A DNA stretch of 42,187 nt from contig CALCYP010000036.1 of the NCBI GenBank assembly GCA_937906635.1, forward strand, positions 1 through 42,187. The letters run 5' to 3'. This document shows positions 1,429 through 33,133 of the stretch, in pieces; position 1 is the stretch's first letter; every line of letters starts with the position of its first letter. A program made the translations under genes and the position numbers. This stretch comes from an uncultured bacterium (GTDB lineage: Bacteria > Patescibacteriota > Gracilibacteria > Absconditabacterales > Absconditicoccaceae). Below the pieces are notes generated by a model that did not search any database, was not told the DNA's origin, and saw nothing but the letters and a program-made list of their open reading frames with translations.

Positions 1429-4350
1429 TTAATTCTTAATTATTTTTCCATCATCTAATCTAATCACATCATCAGCAAATTGAAGAATATTTTTATCATG
1501 TTCAATCATCAAAATTGTATCTCCTCATTCCAAAAATTTCTCCAAAACTTTGAGAAGTTTTTCAATATCAGATGGATGAAGTCATACAGTTGGCTCATCT
1601 AAGAAATAGACTGTATGTCATCTAAACTCTTTCAACAAATGTTTTACTAGTTTCAATCTCTGACTTTCTCATCCAGACAATGTATGTGCTGGCTGTCACA
1701 TCTTCAAATATCCCAAACCTATATCACACATCAGCTGTAATTCATCACGGATTGCATCCATTTCAACGAAAAATTCCAAAGCATCAGACACATACATATC
1801 CAACACTTCTGCAATATTTTTTCATTTCCACTTTATATCCAAAACTTCTGATTTATATCTCGTTCCTCTACACAGATCACAAGGCACATAAGTATCAGGC
1901 AAAAATTGTAATTCTACTTTTTTGTATCCATATCCATTACAAGCAGGGCAAGCTCCTTTTCATGAATTGAAACTAAAAGCTGATGCAAAAAATCCTAAAT
2001 ACTTTGCTTGTGTCGTATTTGCATACAAATTTCTAATTTTATCAAAAGTTCAAACAAATGTAGATGGACAAGACCTCGGAGTCTTTCAGATACTACTTTG
2101 ATCCACATAAATTGTATTTTTTACTTCTTCATATCACTGAATAGTCTCTACCGCCAGATCCTTGTAAAATTCTTGTAATGCTAAATTTTCATAATGTTCG
2201 TATAAATCTTTTTGAATTATCGGAGCAGATATGATTTCATCCCGACTCATTCATTTTTTGAGCAATTGAAGTCTGATAAAACTCTGAATAAATTTCTGTT
2301 TATCATTCAAAAATCTAAACAAAGTCGTGTACATGAGTGTTGTCTTTCCTGCTCCACTTGGTCATGTAATGATAGTAAATCATCCAAGTCTAATATCTAC
2401 ATCAATATTTTTCAAATTGTATTTACTAGCTTTTCTGATTTTCAAAAAGTTCTTTCATTTTGCATGATTAAATTCTGCTTGAACTTTCTTTTTTCATGTA
2501 ATATATTGAGCTGTCAAAGTGTCTGATTTGAGGAAATCTTCATACGATCAATTAAACATCAAATTTCAACCAAAATCCCCTGCTCCAGGTCAAATTTCTA
2601 CTACTCGATCAGCAGATTTTATAAATTCTTCATTGTGCTCTACGACTACAACTGTATTTCCCATCTGCTGCAAATTTCTGATAGCGACAATTGCCTTCTG
2701 GATTTCTCTATCACTAAGTCAAATTGTTGGCTCATCGAGGACGTAGGTAATACCCGTTAATTTATTTCCGAGCTGTTTCGCCAATCTCAACCTCTGAATT
2801 TCTCATCCAGAAAGTGTATCCATAGTCCTACTCAAATCCAAGTATCAAAGTCACAAATCTTGAATCGTTTGCAATCTATCCAAAAGTGGCTTTGTAATTC
2901 TTTCAACGAGTATATTATTTTTTTTTGTATTTTTTTGGTAATCCAAGAAAAAAGTGACTAAATCATCCAATTTAAATTTTTGCAAATCTGAAATATTATA
3001 TTTCTTTTTTCATGAAGAAACAAACACATTTAGACTCTCAATTCTCAACCTCCTTCCATCACAAGTTGGACAAGCTTTCATGTCCAGCATTGCTTGAAAA
3101 TCCACAGTAAGGAGTCATTTCACATATTGATCTTTCAAAATTTCGGAAATTCATTGATATTTCATACTAGTATACTTTCATCACTGTTGGACGCGAATTA
3201 ATTCATCGTCTCCATAAAGTACCACATGCTGAAACCATTCTGGCAAATCTTTCCAAAGTTTATCTGTATCCATAGAATATTTCTCAGCCAATTTATGCAA
3301 TACTATCTGTCCAAATGTACTATCTCTTCGCGGCAATATACATTGCATATATGGACTATAAGGATCCACGACTTTATTGAAATCTACTTGTAAAACCTCC
3401 CCTATCCCATGACACTCCATACAAGCTCATTCAGGCCTATTTGGAGAAAAGTGCTGTGCAGTAAATTCAGGATAAGTGACATTACAGTCTGGACAGTACA
3501 TCTTATCTGTAAACCACAATACATCATTTGATTCAATTTCTGCAGTATCCAATTTATCATTTTCATTTGCATCCACAAAAATTCCAAATTTTTCGGTCTC
3601 AGACAAAATTTTGATAATATCTTCTTTCAGCCTGTCTAATTTGTTTTTTTCTACTGTCACACGATCATAAATTCCAAATACTCTGAGGGGAAAATACTCT
3701 TTTGGTACATTTGGATCCTCCAAATAAAAGTATTCAACTGGCTCTTTTTGCGGTCATAACAACAAATATCTGGTGAATCCACCTCACTTTTCTACTTTAT
3801 TTCTATTCTTTTTCACAAATTTCGACAATAAATCATATTCTGAGATTTCTCACACATCTTTCAAAAGAAATATTTTTTTATCAATATAATTTTTTTTCAA
3901 TTCATCCATGATTTGATCCACAGATGTCGGTTTGATTTGTTTTCCACATTTATAGCAATAGCTATCTCCTAATTTTGCAAAAAGCAATCTCATATAATCA
4001 TCAATCTCTGTCAAAGTTCATACAGTACTCCTACTATTTCATCATTTTTTGTTTTGTTCAATAGCAATTGCCGGAGAAAGTCCTGTACAATGATCAATTT
4101 CAGGTCTCGTTCACAGATTGAAAAACTGTCTCAAAAAACTAGACAGCGACTCAATATAACGGAATTGTCATTCTTTGTAAATAGTATCAAAAGCAAAAGA
4201 AGACTTTCCACTACCAGAAACTCCAGTCACAGCAATGACTTTATTTTTTGGCAAAGTTACATCGATATTTTTGAGATTATTTGTATTTACTCATTCAAAT
4301 ACAATTTCATTTTGAAAATTCTCTAAATTAACTTTTATTTCTTTCTTCAT
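1429..4350 (-). CDS. uvrA: Excinuclease ABC subunit A (UvrA), 973 aa
   Basis: Open from ATG (4350) to TAA (1429-1431) with TGA = Gly. Motifs seen: [31 protein letters not shown]...[11 protein letters not shown], and a C-terminal LSGGESQRLKL...LDEPTVGLH. The second Gly of LSGGE is TGA (1669-1671). Confidence 0.94.
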
Positions 4351-4381
4351 AAACTTTTATTAGAAATCTAAACATTTCGTT

Positions 4382-4431
4382 TAGCTATTAGCTATTGGCT
4401 ATCAGCTAAAAATTTTGCTTTGCAAAATTTT
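4382..4431. repeat. Heptamer array (gctatta gctattg gctatca) plus AT palindrome aaaattttgc-ttt-gcaaaatttt
   Basis: Direct reading shows a period of 7 bp. The 10-bp-arm palindrome at 4409-4431 abuts the stop of the upstream (minus-strand) gene. Confidence 0.8.
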
Positions 4432-5394: not shown

Positions 5395-5443
5395 GCTATC
5401 TGCTATTAGCTATCGGCTATTCGCTATCAGCTATTAGCTAAAC
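5395..5443. repeat. Heptamer array (gctatct gctatta gctatcg gctattc gctatca gctatta gctaaac)
   Basis: Seven consecutive 7-bp units lie immediately downstream of the tex stop codon. Confidence 0.85.
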
Positions 5444-5445
5444 AC

Positions 5446-7821
5446 TATATTTCATCAAATTGAATAATCATCATCTTCTTGTCCTCCTTTTTCAAAGGAG
5501 GTGTCACGAAGTGACGAAGGATTTTTAAAAATCCCTCTGGCTTCGCCATCTCCCTTCCCTGCTGAGCCCGGGCACGGTAAAAAGGGAGACACTTTTTTTA
5601 CTACTCATGAATTATCACAGTCTTTCATTGAAAGACCTACTTTTTCTCTATCTAAATCTATACTAACTACTTTCACTTTTACTTGCTGTCATACTGAAAC
5701 TACATCAATTGGGTTTTTCACAAAAAAGTCTGCCATTTGTGACTTGTGAACTAATCAATCATTGTGTAATCAGATATCTACAAACGCTCCGAAATCTGTC
5801 ACATTTCTCACGATTCACTCTAACTCCATTCACTCTTGTAAATCTTTGATTTCCAAAACATCTGATTTAAATACTGGAGCCTGAATTTCGTCACGAGGAT
5901 CCAATCCTGGTCTCTCCAATTCTGCTAATACATCTTTCATTGTCTCAATTCATATTCAATATTTCTCAGAAAGGGATTCAATTCCTTGTAAATTAAAATC
6001 CTCCCTTCCCCCCTTAATAAGGGGGGCAAACTTTGACAAGTCCATTGGTAATTTCAAATCTTTTTCCTTGATTCAAAACTCTTTTTCTATCATTTCATAA
6101 ACTTGTTTGTGGATTTCTGGATGAATTCATGTCTGATCCAATACTTCTTTTCATCATTTAATCCTCATAAATCAAATCGCTTGTTCATATGCTTTTGGTC
6201 CAAGTCATTTCACCTTTTTTATTTGAGATTTGCTTGTAAATTCTCCATTTTCATCTCTATATGCTACCAAATTTTTGGCTACACTTTCAGTCATTCAGGC
6301 CAAATATTGGAGTAATGTATAGTTGGCCGTATTTACATCTACTCAAACTGAATTTACTACATCTTCTACTTTTTCATCCAATTTTTCTTTCAAAAGTTTT
6401 TGATCTACATCATGCTGATACTGTCATACTCAAATTGATTTTGGATCAATTTTTGTAAATTCAGCCAATGGATCTTGAACTCTATGTGCTATAGAAATTG
6501 CTCATCTGACTGTCACATCAAGCTGTGGATATTCACTCTGAGCCAATTTTGATGCTGAATATACTGATGCTCAAGCTTCTGATGTCACCATATATTTGAT
6601 ATCCAATTTATATTTTTTGATGAAATCAGATACAAATTTCTCTGATTCTCTACTTGCCGTTCCATTTCATATGGAAATCAAATCTATATCGTACTGATTT
6701 ACTATTTTCAAAAGTTTTTCTTCTGATTCCTCTATCTTGTTTTGTGGTGCGGTAGGATAAATTACATCATTATAAAGGAATTTCCCAGTCTTATCCACCA
6801 CTGCCAATTTACATCATGTCCTAAATGCAGGATCAAATCCTAATACTGTAAGTCATTTGATTGGTGGAGTAAGCAATAGATTTTTCAAGTTCTCACCAAA
6901 AACTTTGATTGCTGCTTCATCTGCTCGTCTCTTTTTGTCTGCTCTAATTTCTCTCTCAATTGATGGCAAAAGTAGTCTATCTAATCAATCTTCTATCGCT
7001 TCGATGAGATAGCAAGATGAAGTATTCGCATTATTTGGCAAAAAATAATTGTTTGCAAAAGATCTGATTTTTTCATCAGACATTTTTAATTTTACATTTA
7101 GTTGTTTTTCATTTTCAGCTCTATCAATGGCCAAATATGCATACGATGGCACATAGGTGATTTGTTTCGAATATTCTTTGTAAATTTTATATGTTCAATT
7201 TTCTTCAAAAGTCTTGGTTGGCTTCGTCGTGACGATAGAATTAATTTCTTCATGAGATTTAATTTTCTCTCTCAAATTAGCATGATCAGAGACATCTTCA
7301 GCGATAATATCTTTGGCTCACTGAATAGCTTCTGCTACATTTTTCACTGAAGTTTTTACATCTCATGTATCTTTTACAAATTCTTTTGCTTTCGCTTCAA
7401 ACTCCTCTTTGGTCAATGTAGCTTTTGCCAAAATTTCAGCAAGTGGCTGTAATCATTTTGCTTTTGCTATAGTCGCTTTTGTGTTTTTCTTTTCTTTGAA
7501 TGGCCTATATAAATCTTCTACCCTCGCCAAAGTATCAGCATCCAAAATTTCTTGTTTTAATTCTGGAGTCAGGAGTCATTTTTCATCAATCAGGCGGACT
7601 ACAACTTCTTTCCTTGCTTCCAAATTTTTGGTATATGTATACAAATCATTGAAATCACGAAGTTGCTCATCTGTAGCTCATTTTGTCAGCTCTTTACGAT
7701 AACGAGCGATAAAAGGGACTGTATTTCATTCATCCAAAAGCTGGATAATATTTGAAATCACTCAAGTCTCCATTCATGTCTTGATTTGAATTTTCTGAAT
7801 TAAATTTGTCATAATTTTCAT
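5446..7821 (-). CDS. tex: Tex-like transcription accessory protein (YqgF/HHH/S1 domains), 791 aa
   Basis: Motifs seen: NTVPFIARYRKE, VLGFDPAFRTGCKLAVVD, IGNGTASRESE, GVGQYQHDV. The S1 domain reads [27 protein letters not shown]. The last ~55 aa run through GC-rich hairpin repeats before TAG at 5446-5448. Confidence 0.9.
5483..5589. repeat. Composite GC-rich multi-hairpin element, lying inside the tex 3' coding tail
   Basis: Hairpins include cctccttt-ttc-aaaggagg, gtcac-gaa-gtgac, ggattttt/aaaaatcc and tctccctt...aagggaga. It is related to 26600-26707. Confidence 0.7.
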
Positions 7822-7986: not shown

Positions 7987-8268
7987 ATGACTATAAGTGA
8001 TTTAATGAAAAAGGGTGACTCCTTCGAATTTCTCCCAGGGATTCACAGTAGAGTTCTGCATGTAAAAAAAGGCGCCGACACAGTATCACATCAAATCAAT
8101 GAAGTCGGTGAGTTATTTGCTCATCGATTTAAATTGTATTACGATGCAAACAAAGAAAGATTTGTCGCTTCAATCGCAACCAATTCAAAGCCAAAAAAAT
8201 TTTTTGGTTCGAACATTGACTTGGTATTGTCCACTGTCAGAACTTGGGAAAAACGACAAGGAAATTAA
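7987..8268 (+). CDS. Hypothetical protein, 93 aa (UGA-free cassette 1)
   Basis: Runs ATG to TAA. All 6 Gly codons are GGN with no in-frame TGA. It has its own promoter and terminator. I recognise no family. Confidence 0.65.
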   Translation: MTISDLMKKGDSFEFLPGIHSRVLHVKKGADTVSHQINEVGELFAHRFKLYYDANKERFVASIATNSKPKKFFGSNIDLVLSTVRTWEKRQGN

Positions 8269-8312: not shown

Positions 8313-8326
8313 AATTACAAAAAAAA

Positions 8327-8390
8327 TTGCCCCGACGCGGAGTCGAATTTACCCCGTTATTCGGGGCCGCGATTTCTATCCTACAACTTT
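8327..8390 (-). pseudogene. Decayed tandem copy of tRNA-Arg
   Basis: 29 bp (8319-8347) are identical to the tRNA 3' end and its flank (8407-8435). D-loop-like ggatag and aatcgcgg are retained and the anticodon arm is missing. A ccccg-aataa-cgggg hairpin is inserted in the T arm. Confidence 0.5.
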
Positions 8391-8415
8391 ATAGACTTTC
8401 AAATTTAAAAAAAAT

Positions 8416-8487
8416 TGCCCCGACGCGGAGTCGAACCGCGATTGCAGTCTTCGCAGGACTACGTCCTATCCATTGAACGACCGGGAC
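8416..8487 (-). tRNA. tRNA-Arg (anticodon GCG), 72 nt, CCA not encoded
   Basis: Hand-folded cloverleaf: acceptor GUCCCGG/UCGGGGC; D arm guuc-aauggaua-ggac; anticodon arm uaguc-CU GCG AA-gacug; 4-nt variable loop; T arm cgcgg-uucgacu-ccgcg; discriminator A. Confidence 0.8.
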
Positions 8488-11034: not shown

Positions 11035-11304
11035 ATGTTGAATTTTGAGATTTCAAAAATCGCTGTTGGCAATCCGAACTCAGCAGAGTTCAACTTTGCG
11101 ATTAAAAATCAGCAGCAAACAATAGCTCTTGCCAAGTACCTAAAAAGTATTGGCATCAAAGGACATGATTATGAAGGGCTTGAGGATGAAGTTATTTCTG
11201 CAAACATATGTATTTGGGCAGACGACATATTCATCGAGCAACTCATAAAAGAGTTAAGCAAGTGAAATTCACTTGCTTTATTTTTATTTGAAAAATTTTT
11301 GTAA
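11035..11304 (+). CDS. Hypothetical protein (UGA-free cassette 2): 76 aa to the first TGA (11263-11265), 89 aa to TAA under code 25
   Basis: All 4 Gly are GGN. The only in-frame TGA lies in the terminator stem. I recognise no family. Confidence 0.6.
11256..11289 (+). terminator. Intrinsic terminator overlapping the 3' end of cassette 2
   Basis: aagcaagtg-aaatt-cacttgctt followed by tatttttattt. Confidence 0.7.
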
Positions 11305-11344: not shown

Positions 11345-12244
11345 ATGAACAAAGCAAATGAGCATAGCAAAGAACTATTGGAAAAATATTTGAGAGAATC
11401 TACCACAAATCCCGAAAAAAATAGATTTTTCATATTAGTATGACCTCACGGAATTTGAAAATCCGATATCGCAATACAATTATCAAAAATCATTTTATGA
11501 GATTTTTTTTATAATGATTTTTTGCATATCAGAGATTTTTCAGGACAATTATGAAAGGAACATGAACTAAAGGTCGAATATAAAGAGGATAATAAAACCA
11601 GTAAAGAATTATTTGATACATATTGATACAAAGACTTATGAACCAGAGAAATCAACGAATGGCTATCGCTATCTCCTGCCGGTACAAAAAAAATATTATT
11701 GCTGGAAAATATAGAAAGGATGAACAAAGCCGCCATAAATGCTTTTTTGAAAACATGTGAAGAGTTGCTACCAAATTGTATCATTTTAGCCACAAGTAGC
11801 AATAAATCCAGAATTTTGGATACAATCCTCTCCAGATCTATAATAATTCCATTTTTTGAATATACAGAAGATGAGCTTTTGAAATATTGTGATGAAAAAT
11901 GATATTTTGCTTGAGATAATAATTTAAAAGAATTAGTTTGTTTGATGAGCCAATGAAAAATGTGAACATTAGATTTATTTCACGAAAAGTTATCTGACAA
12001 CGAAGAATTAAAAGATAAGTTCACAAGCATAATTCAGACATTACAAAATTCTACCATTTGAGTAAAATACCAAGCACTGCTTGATATAAACACTGCATGA
12101 TTTACTGAACAATTTTTGGATTGATTAATTGCATATTACATCCAAAAAAATCAATTCGATTTGGCACAAAATTGGTTGAATGTTAGGAAAATCATTTGAA
12201 CAAACGTAAGGAACGAAAACTTGCTATTTTCTGGATTAATCTAA
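11345..12244 (+). CDS. holB: DNA polymerase III delta' subunit, 299 aa
   Basis: Motifs seen: ILVGPHGIGKS and KILLLENIERMNKAAINAFLKTCEELLPNCIILATSSNKSRILDTILSRS. Confidence 0.85.
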
Positions 12245-15597: not shown

Positions 15598-16218
15598 ATG
15601 AGAGAAAAACACATCAGGAAATGCCCCTGCAAAGAGAAAAGACAGAATTCTCTTTCTGAAAAAATGAACGAATTAATGTACCGTTTCGGCAAAGATCCAA
15701 ATGGCACTTTAATTGGATTAGAAATTAGCGATATAATACTACTACTGGGCCAAAAAGGAAAGATTTCGGAAAAAGACTACGAACTCGTATTCGATACTTT
15801 TCTTAGCCGAGCTAGTGTTCGCACCCTTATCAAATTTGCTGAGAAATACGGCAATGAAGATAAAAGAGACAAAGTCCTGAATACTATTTTTTCTAGGAAA
15901 AGCTATGAAGACGGAAGACTTGTCTATCTAAACGCAAAGAAGAGGGAAAACAAGCTCAGAGGGATTAAGATGATGAAAGATGCATCGTACAATTCATTCA
16001 TCTACATCCTGCACAAAGCCATCCAACATCACGACCTTTTGATGCAAGGAGAATTGGATGGAACAGTGAAAAATGAAGTCATAGATTGCCGCAAAAAATG
16101 GCAGACAATATACGGCTTCGAAAGGGAAATCGGTTCTGATTACCAGGATTCAAAGTATAGAGTTGAAATACTCAAGAAGCTTTTGGATCCTGATATAAAA
16201 AGTATCCAACTGAACTAA
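15598..16218 (+). CDS. Hypothetical protein, 206 aa (UGA-free cassette 4)
   Basis: Intact in the standard-code track, ATG to TAA. All 12 Gly are GGN. CGN Arg codons are frequent. A hand count of the first ~120 nt gives about 37% G+C, against about 32% for the start of ruvB. I recognise no family. Confidence 0.7.
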   Translation: MREKHIRKCPCKEKRQNSLSEKMNELMYRFGKDPNGTLIGLEISDIILLLGQKGKISEKDYELVFDTFLSRASVRTLIKFAEKYGNEDKRDKVLNTIFSRKSYEDGRLVYLNAKKRENKLRGIKMMKDASYNSFIYILHKAIQHHDLLMQGELDGTVKNEVIDCRKKWQTIYGFEREIGSDYQDSKYRVEILKKLLDPDIKSIQLN

Positions 16219-18169: not shown

Positions 18170-18171
18170 AA

Positions 18172-18270
18172 ATAGCTAATAGCCAATAGCTAATGGCTGA
18201 TAGCATTCATATTCGCTATTAGCTATATGCTATGTGCTATCAGCTGAAAATTTTACAATGTAAAATTTTC
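18172..18270. repeat. Inverted heptamer arms plus AT palindrome (composite intergenic module)
   Basis: One arm reads agctaat agccaat agctaat ggctgat agc and the other gctatta gctatat gctatgt gctatca gct. The palindrome gaaaattttac-aat-gtaaaattttc (18246-18270) ends 2 nt before the ruvB ATG. Confidence 0.85.
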
Positions 18271-27666: not shown

Positions 27667-28464
27667 TTATTTTTCTTTTTTCACTAATGAATCTACGTAT
27701 TCTTTTGTGTATGTTTCATCATCAGTAACTTTTCTAATGAAAGCATAAACTGATTCAGGATAGTCTCCACTTAAGAAACGGTCATCATAATACGATCTTG
27801 AGAATTCACTACGCATCATATTGGCAATTACTGAAGCTCCACATCACAAATGTCCATTTTTCATACCAGGGAATAATTTAACTTTTTCTGGGAATTGTTT
27901 ATCAATATCGTCAAAAGAAAAATTACATCCAAGTTTTATAAGCTCATCAACCAATTGATCGTGTTCCATATCTGGATGTTCTGCAATAAATTTAAGACCA
28001 GCTACTACGTTTTCTTTTGTAATTTTAACTTCTTCTAGTCATTCTCTACTCTCATCAATTTTTTTCACATATCATTCTTCCCTTTTTCTCCTTTGTTCTT
28101 CAGATATTCTATATGCTTCTGCTTGTTTTCTTGATCTTTCTTCATCTTCTGCTTTTGTCATTCACCAGCATTTTATATATGCATCATCCATAGAATTAAT
28201 ATCAACTGAATAAAGCTTTTTTCAATTAAAGTTTATAAAGCAGTTTAAGCCTTCAGCTTTTTTCTTCAATAAAATATTAACCGCATCATCAAATCTAGTT
28301 CATGCGCTTAAATTAATTTCTTCAGTATCGGCTTTCATTGTATCAACATCTTGTAAATTTTTCGAGATTTCTGCCTTTTTTGGTCAAGTAATTGAATCAA
28401 TAATTTCTTCTGTTCTGTTAATTTTCCCCTCATTTGGTCAAGTTGGTAAGTTTTCTTCTGCCAT
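27667..28464 (-). CDS. Hypothetical protein, 265 aa
   Basis: Open with TGA = Gly and acidic or coiled in the middle. I recognise no family. Confidence 0.65.
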
Positions 28465-28507
28465 TTTTATTAAATTATAATATAAAATTTGTTATAATAA
28501 CAACATA

Positions 28508-28536
28508 ATTATATCCAAAAAAAAAAAACTTGTCAA
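28508..28536 (-). promoter_or_regulatory. Consensus sigma70 promoter for the 28464 gene
   Basis: On the minus strand: TTGACA (28536-28531), 17-nt spacer, TATAAT (28513-28508). Confidence 0.6.
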
Positions 28537-28560
28537 ATTTTTGGCCACTTTTTTATCGCG

Positions 28561-28587
28561 GTCAGAACTGGTGTTTCAGACTTTTTT
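28561..28587 (+). terminator. Terminator-like hairpin T0
   Basis: gtcagaa-ctggtgt-ttcagac (one mismatch) followed by T6. Confidence 0.35.
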
Positions 28588-28629
28588 GAAAAAAGTGCAT
28601 TTTTTTGAAAAATTTTTTTTGAAAATTTT

Positions 28630-28702
28630 GTCATTTCGAACGCAGTGAGAAATCCACATAAATGTATACTGGATTTCTCGTCGTTTTACTCCTCGAAATG
28701 AC
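28630..28702. repeat. Nested inverted-repeat (MITE-like) element
   Basis: Outer inverted repeat gtcatttcga ... tcgaaatgac and inner hairpin gagaaatcca...tggatttctc. A solo left end (gtcatttcgaacg) follows at 28713. Confidence 0.75.
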
Positions 28703-28979
28703 ACCTTTCTCAGTCATTTCGAACGCTTTCTGTCCCCCTTACGAAGACGAAAGATTCCGATTTATCGGAAGGGGATAAAGGGGGTTTAAATCAACCTCCC
28801 CAACCACTCTTCGCGAAGGAGTGGATTTTTCTTTCTTCATATATTTAATTTTATTAAAAAAAACAAATAAAACAAATTTTATTATATTTTATCTCGAATT
28901 TGTCTTGACTTTTAATATCAAATTCATACAGTATATGCTGTATACATACCAAATATATTCTTTGCCATTTTATTTTTTT

Positions 28980-29013
28980 AGAGCCGGCTGAATTTCTTGC
29001 CGGCTCTTTTTTT
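28980..29013 (+). terminator. Intrinsic terminator A of the array
   Basis: agagccggc-tgaatttctt-gccggctct followed by T6. TTGACT lies at 28904-28909 upstream. Confidence 0.7.
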
Positions 29014-29108
29014 GTTTGATTTTTGTAAACTTTTCATTAAGATTTAGATTGAGATAAGTTATCTGCTTTTCTCTTTATTTTTGTTGGTATAAATAGTTAA
29101 TTGTAGAA

Positions 29109-29138
29109 AGGAGTCTTCGTATTTGTGGACTCCTTTTT
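29109..29138 (+). terminator. Intrinsic terminator B of the array
   Basis: aggagtc-N12-gactcct followed by a T run. Confidence 0.65.
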
Positions 29139-29227
29139 ATCGCTTGATTTTTTAGAATATATAGTTATACTCTTGTTAGACAACAAAATTAATTTTTTCA
29201 TTTTTATTTAGATTTTTGTTTTTTAAT

Positions 29228-29255
29228 GGGGCTATTATTATAGCTCCATTTTTTT
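29228..29255 (+). terminator. Intrinsic terminator C of the array
   Basis: ggggcta-ttatta-tagctcc followed by aT7. It is preceded by TTGATT-16-TATACT (29144-29171). Confidence 0.6.
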
Positions 29256-29365
29256 ATAAAAATATTTTCAAAAAAAGTATTGCAATTAAAAGAAAATTCC
29301 ACATATTGTATTTTGTTAAGGAGACTTTCTTCATAATTGTTTTGGTTAGTAATTTATTAGTGGAG

Positions 29366-29397
29366 GAGCCATTGCATGTCTTTGGCTCTTTTTTTTA
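29366..29397 (+). terminator. Intrinsic terminator D of the array
   Basis: gagcca-N11-tggctc followed by T9. It is preceded by a TTGCAA box (29280-29285). Confidence 0.65.
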
Positions 29398-29490
29398 TTT
29401 GTGTCAAATTTTTCAAAAAATCTTGAAATATGTTTTCTAATTTGTAGAAGTGAAGTGAAAGAATTTCTTTCTTCATAATGAGGTTTGAGT

Positions 29491-29520
29491 GGAGCCACAA
29501 TTTAGTGGCTCCTTTTTTTT
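29491..29520 (+). terminator. Intrinsic terminator E of the array
   Basis: ggagccac-aattta-gtggctcc followed by T8. The comEC stop codon (29502-29504, minus strand) lies in its loop. Confidence 0.7.
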
Positions 29521-31103
29521 GAAATTTCTTTTAATATGACTCGTAAAATAAACAAAATCAATAACACATACACAATCCAAGCTCAATTTGCATGTAGATA
29601 AATTCCAAATTTTGCTGTTGTTCATGAAATTCGATAGATATAGTCAATTAGCCATTTTTCTGGCAATATGAAAATATTTCGTGGTAAGATATTAAACAAA
29701 ATCGTACTGATAAACCCATAAATCATCACTATTGCTATGATTGGACTCACGAAAAAATTTGCCACAATTCACAAAAGATTTGTTCATCACATGAAAAATA
29801 GCATGATTGGTAGTACTCACAATGTCGCTCAGAGTGTTGGTTCAATATAATCTTTTGCACAATTTCTGATAAATTTTTGAAACTTTTCTTTGAAAGATTT
29901 TTTTTCTTTTTTCAAAGATTTTTTTATGACTCCTTTTTCAGAGTCTTTTTCGGCTCTCTTTTCTGCAAATTCCTTATTCAATTTATCCACGAAAGCTGAA
30001 AAATATACAATTCAAATTATTGCTGAGAAACTGAGCAAAAATCACACATCATATGCCAAAAAATATGGATTCACCAACAACATAATCACAAAAGCGGTTC
30101 ACATGGCTCTCCGTATATCGATTTCCCTTCATCGAAACAATGCCAAAAGCGACAAGCTTCACATTATCGCCGCTCTAAATACTGAGCTATCAAGCCCACA
30201 AATCAAAGAATATACAATTACAGTCAAAAGTATGATAGCATTCCTGGGATAAAATGGAATGAAAAATAATATTGCAGACAGAAAAACCACAATCATCACG
30301 ATATTTCATCCACTGACTGCAATTATGTGCACCAGTCACGAATCGATGAAAGTTTGATAATCATCACTTGGAATTTGTGATCTATCTCATACGAGCATTC
30401 CCAATACCAATCAAGCTTGTGGAGTCTCTCAGTATGCTGAAATTATCATGTCTTGTAAATTTTTTCTGATTTTTTGGATGAACGAAATTTTTGTTTCAGT
30501 ATCGTCATTTTTCACAGAATTTTGTTCATAAATAGTTCAATAATATCATTTCATCATTTCCCGTTTGGGATAGTTGAATTCATATTGAAAAATTGACTGA
30601 AAATCTGGTTTTGTTTTGAAAACTTCAAGCTGTTTCCTCAAATTAAAAATATCTTTTGCTCAAGTATAACCAAACGAGACATATCAGTTTAATCGAATTT
30701 CATCTCAGATTTTGTATGATTTTTCAGATTTCAAAAAATATTCACGACCTCATCCATCTTGGAAAATATATTTTTGATAAGAGTAAATATCCGAAATAAT
30801 TCATGTTCATATGAAATACGATCATTGCGGTCATTCCATATTTTCTGTAATCAATCATGTCGATGTGGAAATAGTCTGGACTTTTTTATCATACCTATAA
30901 ACTTTGACAAAAATTGAAGACAATGACAGTACAAAAGCGAGAGAAATTATTCATATTTTTTGCCAAATTTTTCATTTTTTCGTAAAAAAAGTCACAATTA
31001 CCGTTCAAATCAAAAGCAAAAATAAAGCTATCATCGCCAAAAAAAGATTTTCAGTGATAGTGAGTATTATCGTAAATATTGCTAATGAGACAATGAATAG
31101 CAT
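29502..31103 (-). CDS. comEC: DNA internalisation channel ComEC/Rec2 (no metallo-beta-lactamase domain), 533 aa
   Basis: N-terminal TMs and an OB-like segment GDEIRLNGYVSFGY. The competence-domain core reads GLVLGMLVGDRSQIPSDDYQTFIDSGLVHIIAVSGGNI. A Lys/Glu-rich insert occurs before the last TMs. Confidence 0.85.
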
Positions 31104-31130: not shown

Positions 31131-31212
31131 GTCCCTTCGGGACTAAATTTTTAAATTTTTATCATCGCTGAGGGTTTCACCCTCAGCTAAAGATATTTAG
31201 TCCCTACGGGAC
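31131..31212 (+). repeat. Three-hairpin GC-rich element (copy 2)
   Basis: Hairpins are gtccc-ttc-gggac (31131-31143), gctgagggt-ttc-accctcagc (31167-31187) and gtccc-tac-gggac (31200-31212). The 23-nt and 12-13-nt spacings match copy 1. Confidence 0.7.
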
Positions 31213-31468
31213 TTATTTTTTTCCAATCAAGCCCTGAAAGGGTGTCATCTCATATAGCTAAAGATATTCAGTTCCTCTGGGACTTATTTTATTCCAATCA
31301 AGCCCTGAAATGGTGTCATCTCACATAGCTAAAGATATTCGGTTCCTCTGGGACTTATTTTATTCCAATCAAGCCCTGAAAGGGCGTCATCTCACATAGC
31401 TAAAGATATTCAGTTCCTCCGGGAGTTATTTTTTTCCAATCAAGCCCTGAAAGGGCGTCATCTCATAT
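31185..31468 (+). repeat. 71-bp tandem repeat, 4 copies
   Basis: Unit starts at 31185, 31256, 31327 and 31398, with a diverged fifth start at 31469. Each unit carries the hairpins g(t)tcc..ggga(c) and gccctgaaagggc. Confidence 0.9.
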
Positions 31469-31572
31469 AGCTCAGGGCAAGGCCCTGAGCGTTAATAAAT
31501 AAATTAAATTCAAGCCCCAACGGGGCGACATATCTCATCACTTCAGAATCTTGTTAATTTATATCGCAAATT

Positions 31573-31608
31573 TTAGCTATCAGCTATCAGCCACCAGCTA
31601 TCAGCTAA
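31573..31608. repeat. Heptamer array (gctatca gctatca gccacca gctatca gctaact)
   Basis: Direct reading. It abuts the pyk stop codon. Confidence 0.8.
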
Positions 31609-33020: not shown

Positions 33021-33133
33021 GAAAATTTTTATGGAATAAATTATTTTAGCTGATAGCCTATAGCCGATAGCTAATAGCTCAATGAAATATAAAACACCTT
33101 TGCTATCAGCTATTAGCAATTAGCTATTAGCTA
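33021..33133. repeat. Inverted heptamer arms plus degenerate AT palindrome (composite intergenic module)
   Basis: aaaatttttat-gga-ataaattatttt sits flush with the pyk start. The arms read agctgat agcctat agccgat agctaat agctcaa and gctatca gctatta gcaatta gctatta gctaaat. Confidence 0.8.

What the first reader, a model, noticed from the sequence alone, without database searches (positions are those of the whole stretch)
28561..29520. A ~1-kb gene-free region with six same-strand intrinsic terminators and TTGACT-type promoter boxes between the last five
**What is there.** Two minus-strand genes (comEC and the 265-aa ORF) flank a region with no convincing CDS. It contains plus-strand terminators T0 and A-E, with GC-rich stems of GGAGCC/GGCTCC type followed by T6-T9 runs. 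Terminators A-E are spaced about 100-140 bp apart (28980, 29109, 29228, 29366, 29491), with T0 about 420 bp upstream at 28561. Most of A-E are preceded by a -35/-10-like pair: TTGACT at 28904, TTGATT at 29018 and 29144, TTGCAA at 29280, TTGAAA at 29422. Predicted transcripts are only about 70-90 nt. A motif tttctttcttcat recurs at 28838, 29330 and 29470.

**Possible readings.**
- A tandem array of small RNAs antisense to the flanking operon direction.
- Decayed copies of the UGA-free cassettes, meaning an insertion hot-spot. The terminator stems resemble those of cassettes 1, 4 and 5.
- Minus-strand micro-ORFs. Five start with ATGAA(G/A)AA, for example MKKEILSLHFYKLENIFQDFLKNLTQIKKRAKDMQWLLH, and would read the A-runs as Lys.

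I cannot decide between these from sequence alone.
Basis: partly seen in the sequence, partly recalled or inferred. Interest (0 to 1): 0.7.

Follow-up and report, generated by a model that had tools for sequence, protein, structure and literature searches.

The report
Cluster of small RNA genes beside comEC
The 1-kb "empty" stretch next to the DNA-uptake gene comEC in this uncultured Absconditabacterales (SR1) bacterium most likely holds five tiny, separately transcribed non-coding RNA genes that related species also carry in varying numbers; this is an ordinary kind of bacterial regulator, but I found none reported for this group.

Summary
Five plus-strand hairpin+T-run terminators (A-E, 28980-29513) exist, with none on the minus strand. 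"T0" at 28561 is not a terminator.

The window uses UGA=Gly and belongs to Candidatus Absconditabacterales.

In at least eight related contigs (ComEC 74-81% identical), the space after the comEC stop holds 1-8 terminators, all convergent with comEC. The unit order A-B-D-E is conserved, and whole units are gained or lost.

Within units, the -35 box (identity 0.79-0.92), a CU-rich core (D/E: AAGAAUUUCUUUCUUCAUAAUGA) and the terminator stems are conserved. Spacers and linkers are not. The D/E terminator helix keeps pairing through two-sided changes.

Minus-strand micro-ORFs are not conserved beyond MKK(E). There are no Rfam, Pfam, phage or plasmid matches.

Best reading (0.6): an island of orphan promoter-to-terminator sRNA genes of 64-89 nt. 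D and E are siblings whose unpaired core contains an anti-start-codon CAU, in a genome where 0 of 30 genes has a Shine-Dalgarno motif. Transcription and targets are inferred, not shown.

The 28630-28832 part is a different thing: a structured repeat whose copy number varies between near-identical strains.

The parts
29502..31103 (-). comEC (533 aa, ComEC/Rec2 competence channel). Its last codons (..KKRSH*) are encoded by the T run and 3' arm of hairpin E, and the TAA stop sits in the hairpin loop.
   Evidence: ORF with UGA read as sense; 231 homologues, PF03772, named ComEC/Rec2 of Candidatus Absconditabacterales; sequence.
29423..29520 (+). Unit E: TTGAAA(29423)-16-TAGAAG, predicted TSS about 29457, unpaired core GAAAGAAUUUCUUUCUUCAUAAUGAGG, terminator hairpin 29491-29513 plus U8. 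Predicted RNA about 64 nt. Its 3' end is antisense to the end of comEC.
   Evidence: Orthologues with the same promoter, core and terminator occur in L008 and L004. A CM built from D-type units, without E, hits E at E about 6e-4 to 9e-4.
29280..29396 (+). Unit D: TTGCAA(29280)-18-TATTGT, core CUUUCUUCAUAAU (29325-29337), UUUUGGUUAGUA, terminator 29363-29392 plus U8. Predicted RNA about 81 nt. It is a sibling of E.
   Evidence: Alignment A3 of 9 orthologues. Segment identities: -35 0.79, core 0.78, 3' stem 0.90, linker 0.29. Helix covariation.
29144..29257 (+). Unit C: TTGATT(29144)-16-TATACT, terminator 29225-29250 plus U7. Predicted RNA about 80 nt. It is lineage-specific, with no orthologue in any relative except the near-identical L003.
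   Evidence: No BLAST hit for 29140-29260 outside L003.
29016..29138 (+). Unit B: TTGATT(29016, overlapping A's T run)-16-TAAGAT, 5' hairpin, conserved UUUGUU(A/G)(A/G)UA..GUUAAUU stretch, terminator 29110-29133 (extended stem from 29103). Predicted RNA about 89 nt.
   Evidence: Alignment A2 of 8 orthologues, mean column identity 68%, 34 invariant columns. Terminator helix with two-sided changes.
28905..29014 (+). Unit A: TTGACT(28905)-16-TACAGT, terminator 28980-29008 plus U7. Predicted RNA about 76 nt. Relatives carry the core CAUCUUCUUGAA, and the window copy has diverged to UAUAUUCUUUGCC.
   Evidence: In alignment A4, CTTGAC is invariant in 8 of 8 sequences, and -35 identity is 0.92 against 0.41 overall.
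28630..28832 (.). Structured repeat block, separate from units A-E. 28630-28726 is one shortened unit (GTCATTTCGAACGC..TCGAAATGAC) of a repeat of about 117 nt that is tandemly amplified in the near-identical contig L003. 28727-28832 holds further hairpins (TTCCGATTTATCGGAA, GGGGG../..CCCC) and ends in a hairpin+T run at 28804-28825. It may be a sixth plus-strand transcript.
   Evidence: Fold z -5.2 (+) and -4.5 (-). Direct repeat D11. Copy-number difference against L003. A related copy with compensatory changes lies upstream of comEC in L008:4829-4905. Related 129-bp tandem repeat in L001:8764-9110.
28561..28590 (+). It is not a terminator: an AT-rich weak hairpin inside a T/A-rich tract.
   Evidence: -4.7 kcal/mol, z +0.30, and 124 of 200 shuffles fold as well.
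28508..28536 (-). Consensus sigma-70-type promoter (TTGACA-17-TATAAT) for the 265-aa ORF. It shows that the downstream gene has its own promoter.
   Evidence: 12 of 12 matches.
27667..28464 (-). 265-aa ORF of unknown function. In relatives this position is usually occupied by a Na/Pi cotransporter gene.
   Evidence: no Pfam family; neighbours in relatives.
4336..4350 (-). Start of uvrA (AUGAAGAAAGAAAUA). It is the only other place in the window with perfect complementarity (about 15 nt) to the D/E core. This is a candidate target and a lead only.
   Evidence: motif hit at 4341, antisense to the gene start. (best duplex among the start regions of the 34 ORFs scored for both D and E: -21.0 and -22.3 kcal/mol).

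Best explanation
The region is an island of small, independently transcribed non-coding RNA genes on the plus strand, convergent with comEC.

**Anatomy.** Each unit (A, B, C, D, E) runs from its own sigma-70-type promoter to its own intrinsic terminator and should give an RNA of about 64-89 nt. Each RNA has an unpaired 5' part followed by the terminator hairpin. A, B and D/E are three different RNA families. D and E are siblings.

**Proposed mechanism.** The D/E unpaired core (AAGAAUUUCUUUCUUCAUAAUGA) contains an anti-start-codon CAU flanked by a CU-rich tract. It is proposed to pair with mRNA start regions of the form UUAUGAAGAAAG and to block initiation. This organism appears not to use Shine-Dalgarno sequences, so the start codon region is the natural place to block. 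Unit E also overlaps the last codons of comEC in antisense.

**Evolution.** The array evolves by gain and loss of whole units.

**Shown.** Hairpins plus T runs on one strand only. Conserved order. Conserved -35 boxes, cores and stems. Maintained helix. No coding conservation.

**Inferred.** That the units are transcribed, that they act in trans by base pairing, and which genes they target.

**Separate element.** The 28630-28832 segment is a structured variable-number repeat of unknown role.
For: - **Strand bias.** Six hairpin+T-run sites lie on the plus strand and none on the minus strand in 28400-29700, against 1.1 +/- 1.3 expected in 3 kb. No plus-strand ORF lies upstream that they could serve.
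- **Relatives.** In relatives with ComEC 74-81% identical, the same position holds 1-8 terminators, all on the strand opposite to comEC and none on the comEC strand. Counts are L008 8, L004 4 (+1), L006 3, L021 3, L027 3, L029 2, and L018, L007 and L002 1 each.
- **Order.** The unit order A-B-D-E(-F) is conserved.
- **Conservation pattern fits a gene for an RNA.** -35 boxes show 0.79-0.92 identity against 0.41-0.57 overall. The D core is 0.78 and 3' stems are 0.84-0.90, while linkers are 0.29-0.46.
- **Maintained helix.** In the D/E terminator helix, 96.7% of cells are paired and 6 of 9 pairs show two-sided changes. None of 500 shuffles reached this, and slid controls give 42-59% paired.
- **Model search.** A covariance model trained on D-type units finds window E and other untrained units. 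Every hit with E below 0.1 lies in the array just after comEC; all but one weak hit (E 0.08) are on the strand opposite to comEC. Nothing credible appears elsewhere in 216 kb.
- **No Shine-Dalgarno.** None of 30 genes in the window has an SD-like 4-mer at -20..-4. The D/E core is a perfect 15-nt complement of the uvrA start.
- **Precedent.** Streptococcal csRNAs were predicted from exactly this signature: an orphan promoter plus terminator and an unpaired anti-TIR with CAU. They were then verified (PMC3091779).
Against: - There is no expression data of any kind.
- Counted alone, promoter-like sites are not enriched over shuffles. E's -10 (TAGAAG/TAAAAG) is poor.
- No Rfam family matches.
- Unit C has no orthologue, and the window's A has lost the core seen in relatives.
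- In L006, L021, L027 and L029 the D hairpin has no T run, so D may be part of a longer D-E transcript there.
- The alignment used for the covariation count was fitted to the model. Covariation in a terminator stem shows only that the hairpin is kept.
- The core is also the reverse complement of a very common gene start (MKK..), so complementarity to uvrA could be coincidence.
- Only DNA around comEC was available for the relatives, so 'found only at this locus' is not a genome-wide statement.
Confidence: 0.6

Rival explanations
1. Cis-acting antisense or insulator array. The units are transcribed, but their job is local. Convergent transcription and RNA duplexes with read-through comEC mRNA stop or process that mRNA and insulate the next gene. 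The RNAs have no trans targets.
For: - No comEC-strand intrinsic terminator exists between the comEC stop and the next gene, in the window or in the relatives scanned.
- In every lineage the last convergent terminator overlaps the comEC stop codon. This holds for E in the window, L029 and L023, for a B-type unit in L018, and for F in L004, L006, L008, L009 and L021.
- The downstream gene has its own promoter.
Against: - Insulation would need only promoters and terminators. It does not explain a conserved unpaired core (0.78 identity) shared by D, E and their orthologues, or three distinct conserved RNA bodies.
- One convergent unit would be enough, yet arrays reach 8 units.
Confidence: 0.2
2. 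Non-functional debris of a recombination hot spot. The promoter-like and terminator-like pieces are left over from repeated insertion and loss of small cassettes, which is the reader's 'decayed cassette' idea.
For: - Unit number varies from 1 to 8.
- Unit C is lineage-specific.
- The gene next to the array differs between lineages: 265-aa ORF, Na/Pi cotransporter or patatin.
- A variable-number structured repeat sits at the junction.
Against: - The orthologous units A, B, D and E are kept in order across lineages with ComEC 74-81% identical.
- Conservation peaks at the -35 box, the core and the stems, not spread evenly.
- The helix is maintained by two-sided changes.
- No ORF remnants are present, and there is no similarity to other parts of the window, to phages or to plasmids.
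Confidence: 0.1
3. Type I toxin-antitoxin-like modules or other minus-strand micro-ORFs (MKKE...), each overlapped by a plus-strand antisense RNA, as in Ibs/Sib arrays.
For: - Four minus-strand micro-ORFs start with ATGAA(G/A)AA, and a fifth with ATGAAAAG (MKS).
- One of them (29334-29254, MKKVSLTKYNMWNFLLIAILFLKIFL) has a hydrophobic tail.
- The plus-strand RNAs would cover their start codons.
- Tandem arrangement is typical of Sib/Ibs (own knowledge).
Against: - Peptides starting at the conserved core range from 16 to 101 aa and share nothing beyond MKK(E). L004 has a frameshift, L006 has ATA for ATG, and most have negative GRAVY values.
- No minus-strand terminators are present, and minus-strand promoter-like sites are no more frequent than chance.
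- No Pfam hit.
Confidence: 0.04
4. A dispersed repetitive element (REP- or MITE-like) that happens to contain hairpins followed by T runs.
For: The neighbouring 28630-28832 block does belong to a dispersed or tandem structured repeat family. The genome also has other intergenic tandem hairpin repeats.
Against: - Units A-E differ from one another, apart from D and E.
- They have no terminal inverted repeats.
- They give no further credible copy in the window or in 216 kb of related DNA outside this locus.
Confidence: 0.03

Closest known systems
csRNAs (CiaR-dependent small RNAs) of Streptococcus
   Same: - Short RNAs (51-202 nt) encoded in intergenic regions by an orphan promoter followed by an intrinsic terminator.
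- 2-6 related copies per genome, some in tandem.
- A conserved unpaired stretch complementary to translation initiation regions, including CAU as anti-AUG.
- They were predicted from this signature and then verified (PMC3091779; PMC4211561).
- They control competence through comC (PMC4507080 abstract). The array here sits next to a competence gene, which may be coincidence.
   Different: - No sequence or Rfam similarity.
- No CiaR box (TTTAAG-N5-TTTAAG) in the region.
- No anti-Shine-Dalgarno part: the core here is anti-AUG plus anti-codons 2-4, in a genome without SD motifs.
- The organism is a candidate-phylum bacterium with UGA=Gly.
- Expression is untested.
Tandem sibling sRNAs in general (OmrA/OmrB, PrrF1/PrrF2, AbcR1/2; LhrC1-4 of Listeria)
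   Same: - Adjacent paralogous sRNA genes, each with its own promoter and terminator.
- Shared seed and divergent remainder.
- Copy number and arrangement vary between related species.
- Read-through of a first terminator can give a longer RNA (PrrH). Compare the D units that lack a T run in L006, L027 and L029 (PMC4211561). The LhrC arrangement is from my own knowledge.
   Different: - Here at least three unrelated families (A, B, D/E, plus C and F) are packed into one array of up to 8 units.
- No homology to any of these sRNAs.
- The regulator and any chaperone are unknown.
Sib/Ibs and other tandem type I toxin-antitoxin repeats
   Same: Tandem intergenic repeats in which a small RNA with its own promoter and terminator is antisense to a micro-ORF start (own knowledge).
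   Different: The defining conserved hydrophobic toxin ORF is absent. There is no transcription signal for a toxin mRNA on the minus strand.

Membership tests
Intrinsic (Rho-independent) terminator | Stable G+C-rich hairpin directly followed by a U/T run on the transcribed strand | tested here: met
   A-E and the 28804 site fold at -10.4 to -17.6 kcal/mol and have at least 6 T in the next 8 nt. T0 fails (-4.7 kcal/mol, z +0.3).
Intrinsic (Rho-independent) terminator | Actually ends transcripts in vivo | not testable with these tools
   No transcriptome data. Needs Term-seq or a reporter assay.
Trans-acting sRNA gene (csRNA-like or sibling sRNA kind) | Orphan promoter and terminator in an intergenic region, not serving any ORF | tested here: met
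   Boxes and spacings. No plus-strand ORF upstream. -35 boxes are conserved in orthologues. Promoter count alone is not above chance.
Trans-acting sRNA gene (csRNA-like or sibling sRNA kind) | Conserved unpaired seed complementary to mRNA targets | tested here: inconclusive
   The core is conserved (0.78) and predicted unpaired or only weakly paired. It contains CAU and matches the uvrA start perfectly over 15 nt. No target has been validated, and the match could reflect the common MKK gene start.
Trans-acting sRNA gene (csRNA-like or sibling sRNA kind) | A discrete small transcript is detected | not testable with these tools
   No RNA data are available.
csRNA family proper (Streptococcus) | CiaR-binding repeat TTTAAG-N5-TTTAAG upstream of the -10 box, and csRNA sequence homology | tested here: not met
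   No such box on either strand with up to 1 mismatch per half. No Rfam hit at gathering, and the E-value-mode hits are chance-level.
Type I toxin-antitoxin (Ibs/Sib-like) | Conserved small hydrophobic toxin ORF opposite the antisense RNA | tested here: not met
   ORFs range from 16 to 101 aa, share only MKK(E), and include a frameshift and a lost ATG in relatives.
Any described RNA family (Rfam 15) | Score at or above the family gathering threshold | tested here: not met
   Only tRNA-Arg elsewhere in the window. The best hit in 28400-29650 is 25 bits against a threshold of 56.
REP/MITE-type dispersed repeat | Many dispersed copies; terminal inverted repeats | tested here: not met
   Applies to units A-E. 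There are no credible extra copies in the window or in 216 kb of related loci and no terminal inverted repeats. This is not a whole-genome test. The 28630-28832 block does behave like a dispersed or tandem repeat.

The most novel reading that the evidence does not exclude
This would be the first sRNA regulon described in a Candidate Phyla Radiation bacterium. It would be an expandable island of up to eight sRNA genes next to comEC. The sibling members would silence mRNAs by pairing to the start codon and the first codons (an anti-AUG seed), a mode suited to a Shine-Dalgarno-less, UGA-recoded, reduced genome. Whole-unit gain and loss would rewire the regulon between species.
Probability: 0.3. 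Interest if true: 0.65.

Novelty: new member of a known kind. Interest (0 to 1): 0.5.

Why it matters
Absconditabacterales (SR1) and other Candidate Phyla Radiation bacteria have small genomes and few recognisable regulators. I found no paper describing sRNAs in them.

A conserved, copy-number-variable cluster of sRNA genes would show that post-transcriptional RNA regulation exists in this group. It would give concrete, short sequences to look for in metatranscriptomes. It would also offer a testable idea for how translation is repressed in organisms that lack Shine-Dalgarno motifs.

It matters for annotation as well. Such "empty" kilobases in these genomes are not junk, and micro-ORF calls there are probably false.

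Tried and rejected
- **Rfam.** Gathering thresholds on the window and 8 loci, and E-value mode on 28400-29650, gave nothing for the region.
- **Protein families.** Pfam on the 265-aa protein and four micro-ORF peptides gave nothing.
- **Mobile DNA.** blastn of 28540-29530 against phage and plasmid collections gave no match. A core+hairpin pattern scan of viral contigs gave 3 hits, all chance: they are the antisense of ordinary gene starts preceded by a terminator on the other strand, with no T run after the hairpin.
- **Plus-strand micro-ORFs.** The ATG in CATAATGA is missing in D-type units, and in L008 it is followed by a stop after 2 codons. Rejected.
- **The longer unit F in relatives as 6S-like or SRP-like.** Its size varies from 134 to 162 nt with a variable apical insert, and it has no Rfam hit. 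Not pursued.
- **RNAalifold on the first mixed D/E MAFFT alignment (A1).** It gave no structure because the hairpins were misaligned. The question was resolved with the D-only alignment and the model-based alignment.
- **Duplex scan.** The mean and z values are corrupted by one edge gene, so only the rank order is used.
- **The distant relatives L001 and L013-L015 (ComEC about 60% identical).** They have no such array. They carry other structured repeats instead.
Full report
**Setting.** The window is 30% G+C. With the standard code its genes fall apart. With UGA as a sense codon, long ORFs appear. The PyrG N-terminus needs Gly at its UGA positions (FVTGGV..), so the code is table 25. ComEC homologues are named Candidatus Absconditabacterales / SR1.

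The finding sits in the 1037-bp gap between a 265-aa ORF (27667-28464, minus strand, no Pfam hit) and comEC (29502-31103, minus strand).

**Check of the observation.** Five of the six reported terminators are real:

| Unit | Hairpin | Energy (kcal/mol) |
|---|---|---|
| A | 28980-29008 | -17.6 |
| B | 29110-29133 | -10.6 (stem extends from 29103) |
| C | 29225-29250 | -13.7 |
| D | 29363-29392 | -11.6 |
| E | 29491-29513 | -16.1 |

- Each hairpin is followed by a T run.
- T0 at 28561 is not a terminator: -4.7 kcal/mol, z +0.3.
- A further hairpin+T run at 28804-28825 was overlooked.
- In 28400-29700 all six sites are on the plus strand and none is on the minus strand. The generic scan finds 7 sites in 3 kb against 1.1 +/- 1.3 in shuffles.
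- Across the whole window, comparable compact terminators sit at gene ends. This 700-bp stretch holds about a third of them.
The predicted RNAs are 64-89 nt.
- Counted by themselves, promoter-like sites are no more frequent than in shuffles: 14 against 16.2.
- The motif TTTCTTTCTTCAT is at 28828 and 29464, and CTTTCTTCATAAT is at 29325 and 29467.
- The comEC stop codon lies in the loop of hairpin E. The A run on the comEC strand encodes its last lysines.

**Relatives.** Scans with ComEC returned 17 loci. Look-ups of ComEC homologues gave 13 more.
- L003 is identical to the window over 28687-29520, apart from one base in the loop of E. It confirms the sequence but carries no evolutionary information.
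- Lineages with ComEC 74-81% identical are informative. Between the comEC stop and the next gene they carry 1-8 terminators, every one on the strand opposite to comEC and none on the comEC strand. The next gene is usually a Na/Pi cotransporter on the comEC strand.
- Counts are L008 8, L004 4 plus one my scanner missed, L006 3, L021 3, L027 3, L029 2, and L018, L007 and L002 1 each.
- Reading these arrays side by side shows orthologous units in the same order, A-B-D-E. Many lineages have an extra longer unit, F, next to comEC. The window has unit C and L008 has further units that have no counterpart elsewhere.
- More distant relatives (ComEC about 60% identical: L001, L013-L015) have no such array.

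**What is conserved inside a unit.** Alignments of orthologues of B (A2), D (A3) and A (A4) show conservation concentrated in particular segments.

| Segment | Identity |
|---|---|
| -35 box | 0.79-0.92 (CTTGAC invariant in 8 of 8 A units) |
| Overall | 0.41-0.57 |
| D core CTTTCTTCATAAT | 0.78 |
| 3' terminator arm | 0.84-0.90 |
| Linkers | 0.29-0.46 |

- The short cores are CTTTCTTCATAAY in D, CATCTTCTTGAA in A of relatives, and TTTGTTAATA..GTTAATT in B.
- A covariance model built from D-type units only (R1) recovers window E (E about 6e-4 to 9e-4) and other untrained units. Every hit with E below 0.1 lies in the array just after comEC; all but one weak hit (E 0.08) are on the strand opposite to comEC. 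It finds nothing credible elsewhere in the window or in 216 kb of loci.
- On the model-based alignment of 17 units, the terminator helix is 96.7% paired and 6 of 9 pairs show two-sided changes. No shuffle out of 500 reached this, and slid controls give 42-59% paired. Two caveats apply: the alignment was fitted to the model, and a maintained terminator stem shows only that the hairpin matters.

**Coding alternatives.**
- On the comEC strand, the conserved core reads ATGAAGAAAG (MKK..). ORFs starting there are 16-101 aa long and share nothing after MKK(E).
- L004 is frameshifted relative to the window. One L006 unit has ATA for ATG.
- The limited similarity between the window and L008 peptides (MKKEILS.FYKL) coincides with the plus-strand promoter of E.
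- Plus-strand micro-ORFs are not conserved either.
- There are no Pfam hits, no minus-strand terminators, and minus-strand promoter-like sites no more frequent than chance.
- I therefore reject micro-ORFs and type I toxin-antitoxin modules as the main explanation.

**Best explanation and mechanism.** The pattern is orphan promoter, short body, intrinsic terminator, conserved unpaired core, and conserved order with unit-wise turnover. This is the signature of sRNA genes.
- D and E are siblings. A and B are separate families. C is lineage-specific.
- The D/E core contains CAU flanked by a CU-rich tract. It is complementary to UUAUGAAGAAAG, that is, a start codon plus codons 2-4.
- None of 30 genes in the window has a Shine-Dalgarno-like 4-mer upstream. 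Pairing at the start codon itself would be the obvious way to block initiation here.
- The only other perfect match to the core in the window is the start of uvrA (15 nt). It gives the best predicted duplex for both D and E. This is a lead, not evidence, because MKK starts are common.
- E is also antisense to the last codons of comEC.
- Transcription, trans action and targets are all inferences. I put 0.6 on 'independent sRNA genes' and about half of that on the anti-start-codon mechanism.

**Main rival.** The array could act only in cis. There is no comEC-strand terminator after comEC in any lineage, and the last convergent terminator always overlaps the comEC stop. Convergent transcription or RNA duplex formation could therefore define the comEC 3' end and insulate the next gene. 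That would not explain the conserved cores or the need for up to eight units. I give it 0.2. Debris of a recombination hot spot (0.1), micro-ORFs (0.04) and a dispersed repeat (0.03) are weaker.

**The distal part (28540-28832) is something else.**
- It folds far better than shuffles on both strands, z about -5.
- 28630-28726 is one shortened copy of a unit of about 117 nt (GTCATTTCGAACGC...TCGAAATGAC). This unit is tandemly amplified, with at least 3 copies, in the otherwise identical L003.
- A related copy with compensatory changes lies upstream of comEC in L008.
- The CCGAT(A/T)(A/T)ATCGG hairpin recurs in a 129-bp tandem repeat after comEC in L001 and in unit F of relatives.
- The block ends in the 28804 hairpin+T run, so it may be a sixth plus-strand transcript. 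I could not establish a promoter for it.

**Comparison with known systems.** The closest known kind is the streptococcal csRNAs and tandem sibling sRNAs in general. They share the orphan promoter plus terminator, the unpaired anti-TIR stretch with CAU, 2-6 copies with some in tandem, and variable arrangement between species (PMC3091779; PMC4211561). The region is not a member of the csRNA family: it has no CiaR box and no Rfam match. I found no report of sRNAs in Absconditabacteria, and no similarity to phage or plasmid DNA.

**Verdict.** This is a real and non-random feature. It is best read as new sRNA gene families of a known kind in a poorly known lineage, with moderate interest pending expression data.

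Noticed in passing
window 31185-31472: A 71-bp unit repeated 4.1 times in tandem (93% matches). Each copy carries two small hairpins (GTTCCTCYGGGAC and AGCCCTGAAAGGGYG). The array lies in the G+C-richer (41-43%) gap between the comEC start and the pyruvate kinase gene.
   Followed up: partly
window 4381-4408, 5395-5448, 18171-18204, 31575-31607, 33047-33133: Short tandem runs of the heptamer GCTATCA / AGCTATT recur in several intergenic gaps next to gene ends.
   Followed up: no
window 8320-8348 and 8413-8441 (minus strand): The 3' end of tRNA-Arg(GCG) (TTCGACTCCGCGTCGGGGCAATTTTTTTT) is repeated about 93 nt downstream of the tRNA, like an att-site duplication. It lies next to the UGA-free ORF 7987-8268.
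   Followed up: partly
window 7987-8268 and 15598-16218: These are the only two ORFs without any UGA codon in a genome where UGA=Gly is frequent. Both are G+C-richer (0.37), and each is followed by a plus-strand terminator (8283, 16222).
   Followed up: partly
window 11256-11279 (+): Another orphan plus-strand hairpin+T run with no plus-strand ORF upstream, just before the gene starting at 11345. It could be a further sRNA or a leader.
   Followed up: no
L008:9660-10362: Seven tandem hits to the Rfam motif Acido-Lenti-1 (RF01687, 39.6-48.3 bits against a gathering score of 37), spaced about 106-113 nt apart, downstream of the Na/Pi cotransporter gene.
   Followed up: no
L004:6561-6770, L006:6552-6695, L008:6558-6765, L009:6552-6713, L021:4555-4698, L027:4009-4142 (strand opposite to comEC): A longer conserved unit 'F' (134-162 nt where measured). 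It has a good promoter, a 5' hairpin GCACGGTTG..CAACTGTRGTGTGC with a variable insert, a CCCCGATAAATCGGGG hairpin, UUUUUUCAUAAC, and a long terminator overlapping the comEC stop. It is absent from the window and has no Rfam match.
   Followed up: partly
L001:8170-8420 and L002:9560-9800: A conserved non-coding block with a promoter-like start and the hairpin ATCGGTCTTATCGTATGGAGATACGATGAGTAGATCGGT followed by a T-rich tail. It is absent from the window and has no Rfam match.
   Followed up: partly
window, upstream of 30 genes: No Shine-Dalgarno-like 4-mer lies at -20..-4 of any of 30 genes. Leaders are A/T-rich, and -10-like boxes often sit very close to the start codon, so short or absent leaders seem likely.
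   Followed up: partly
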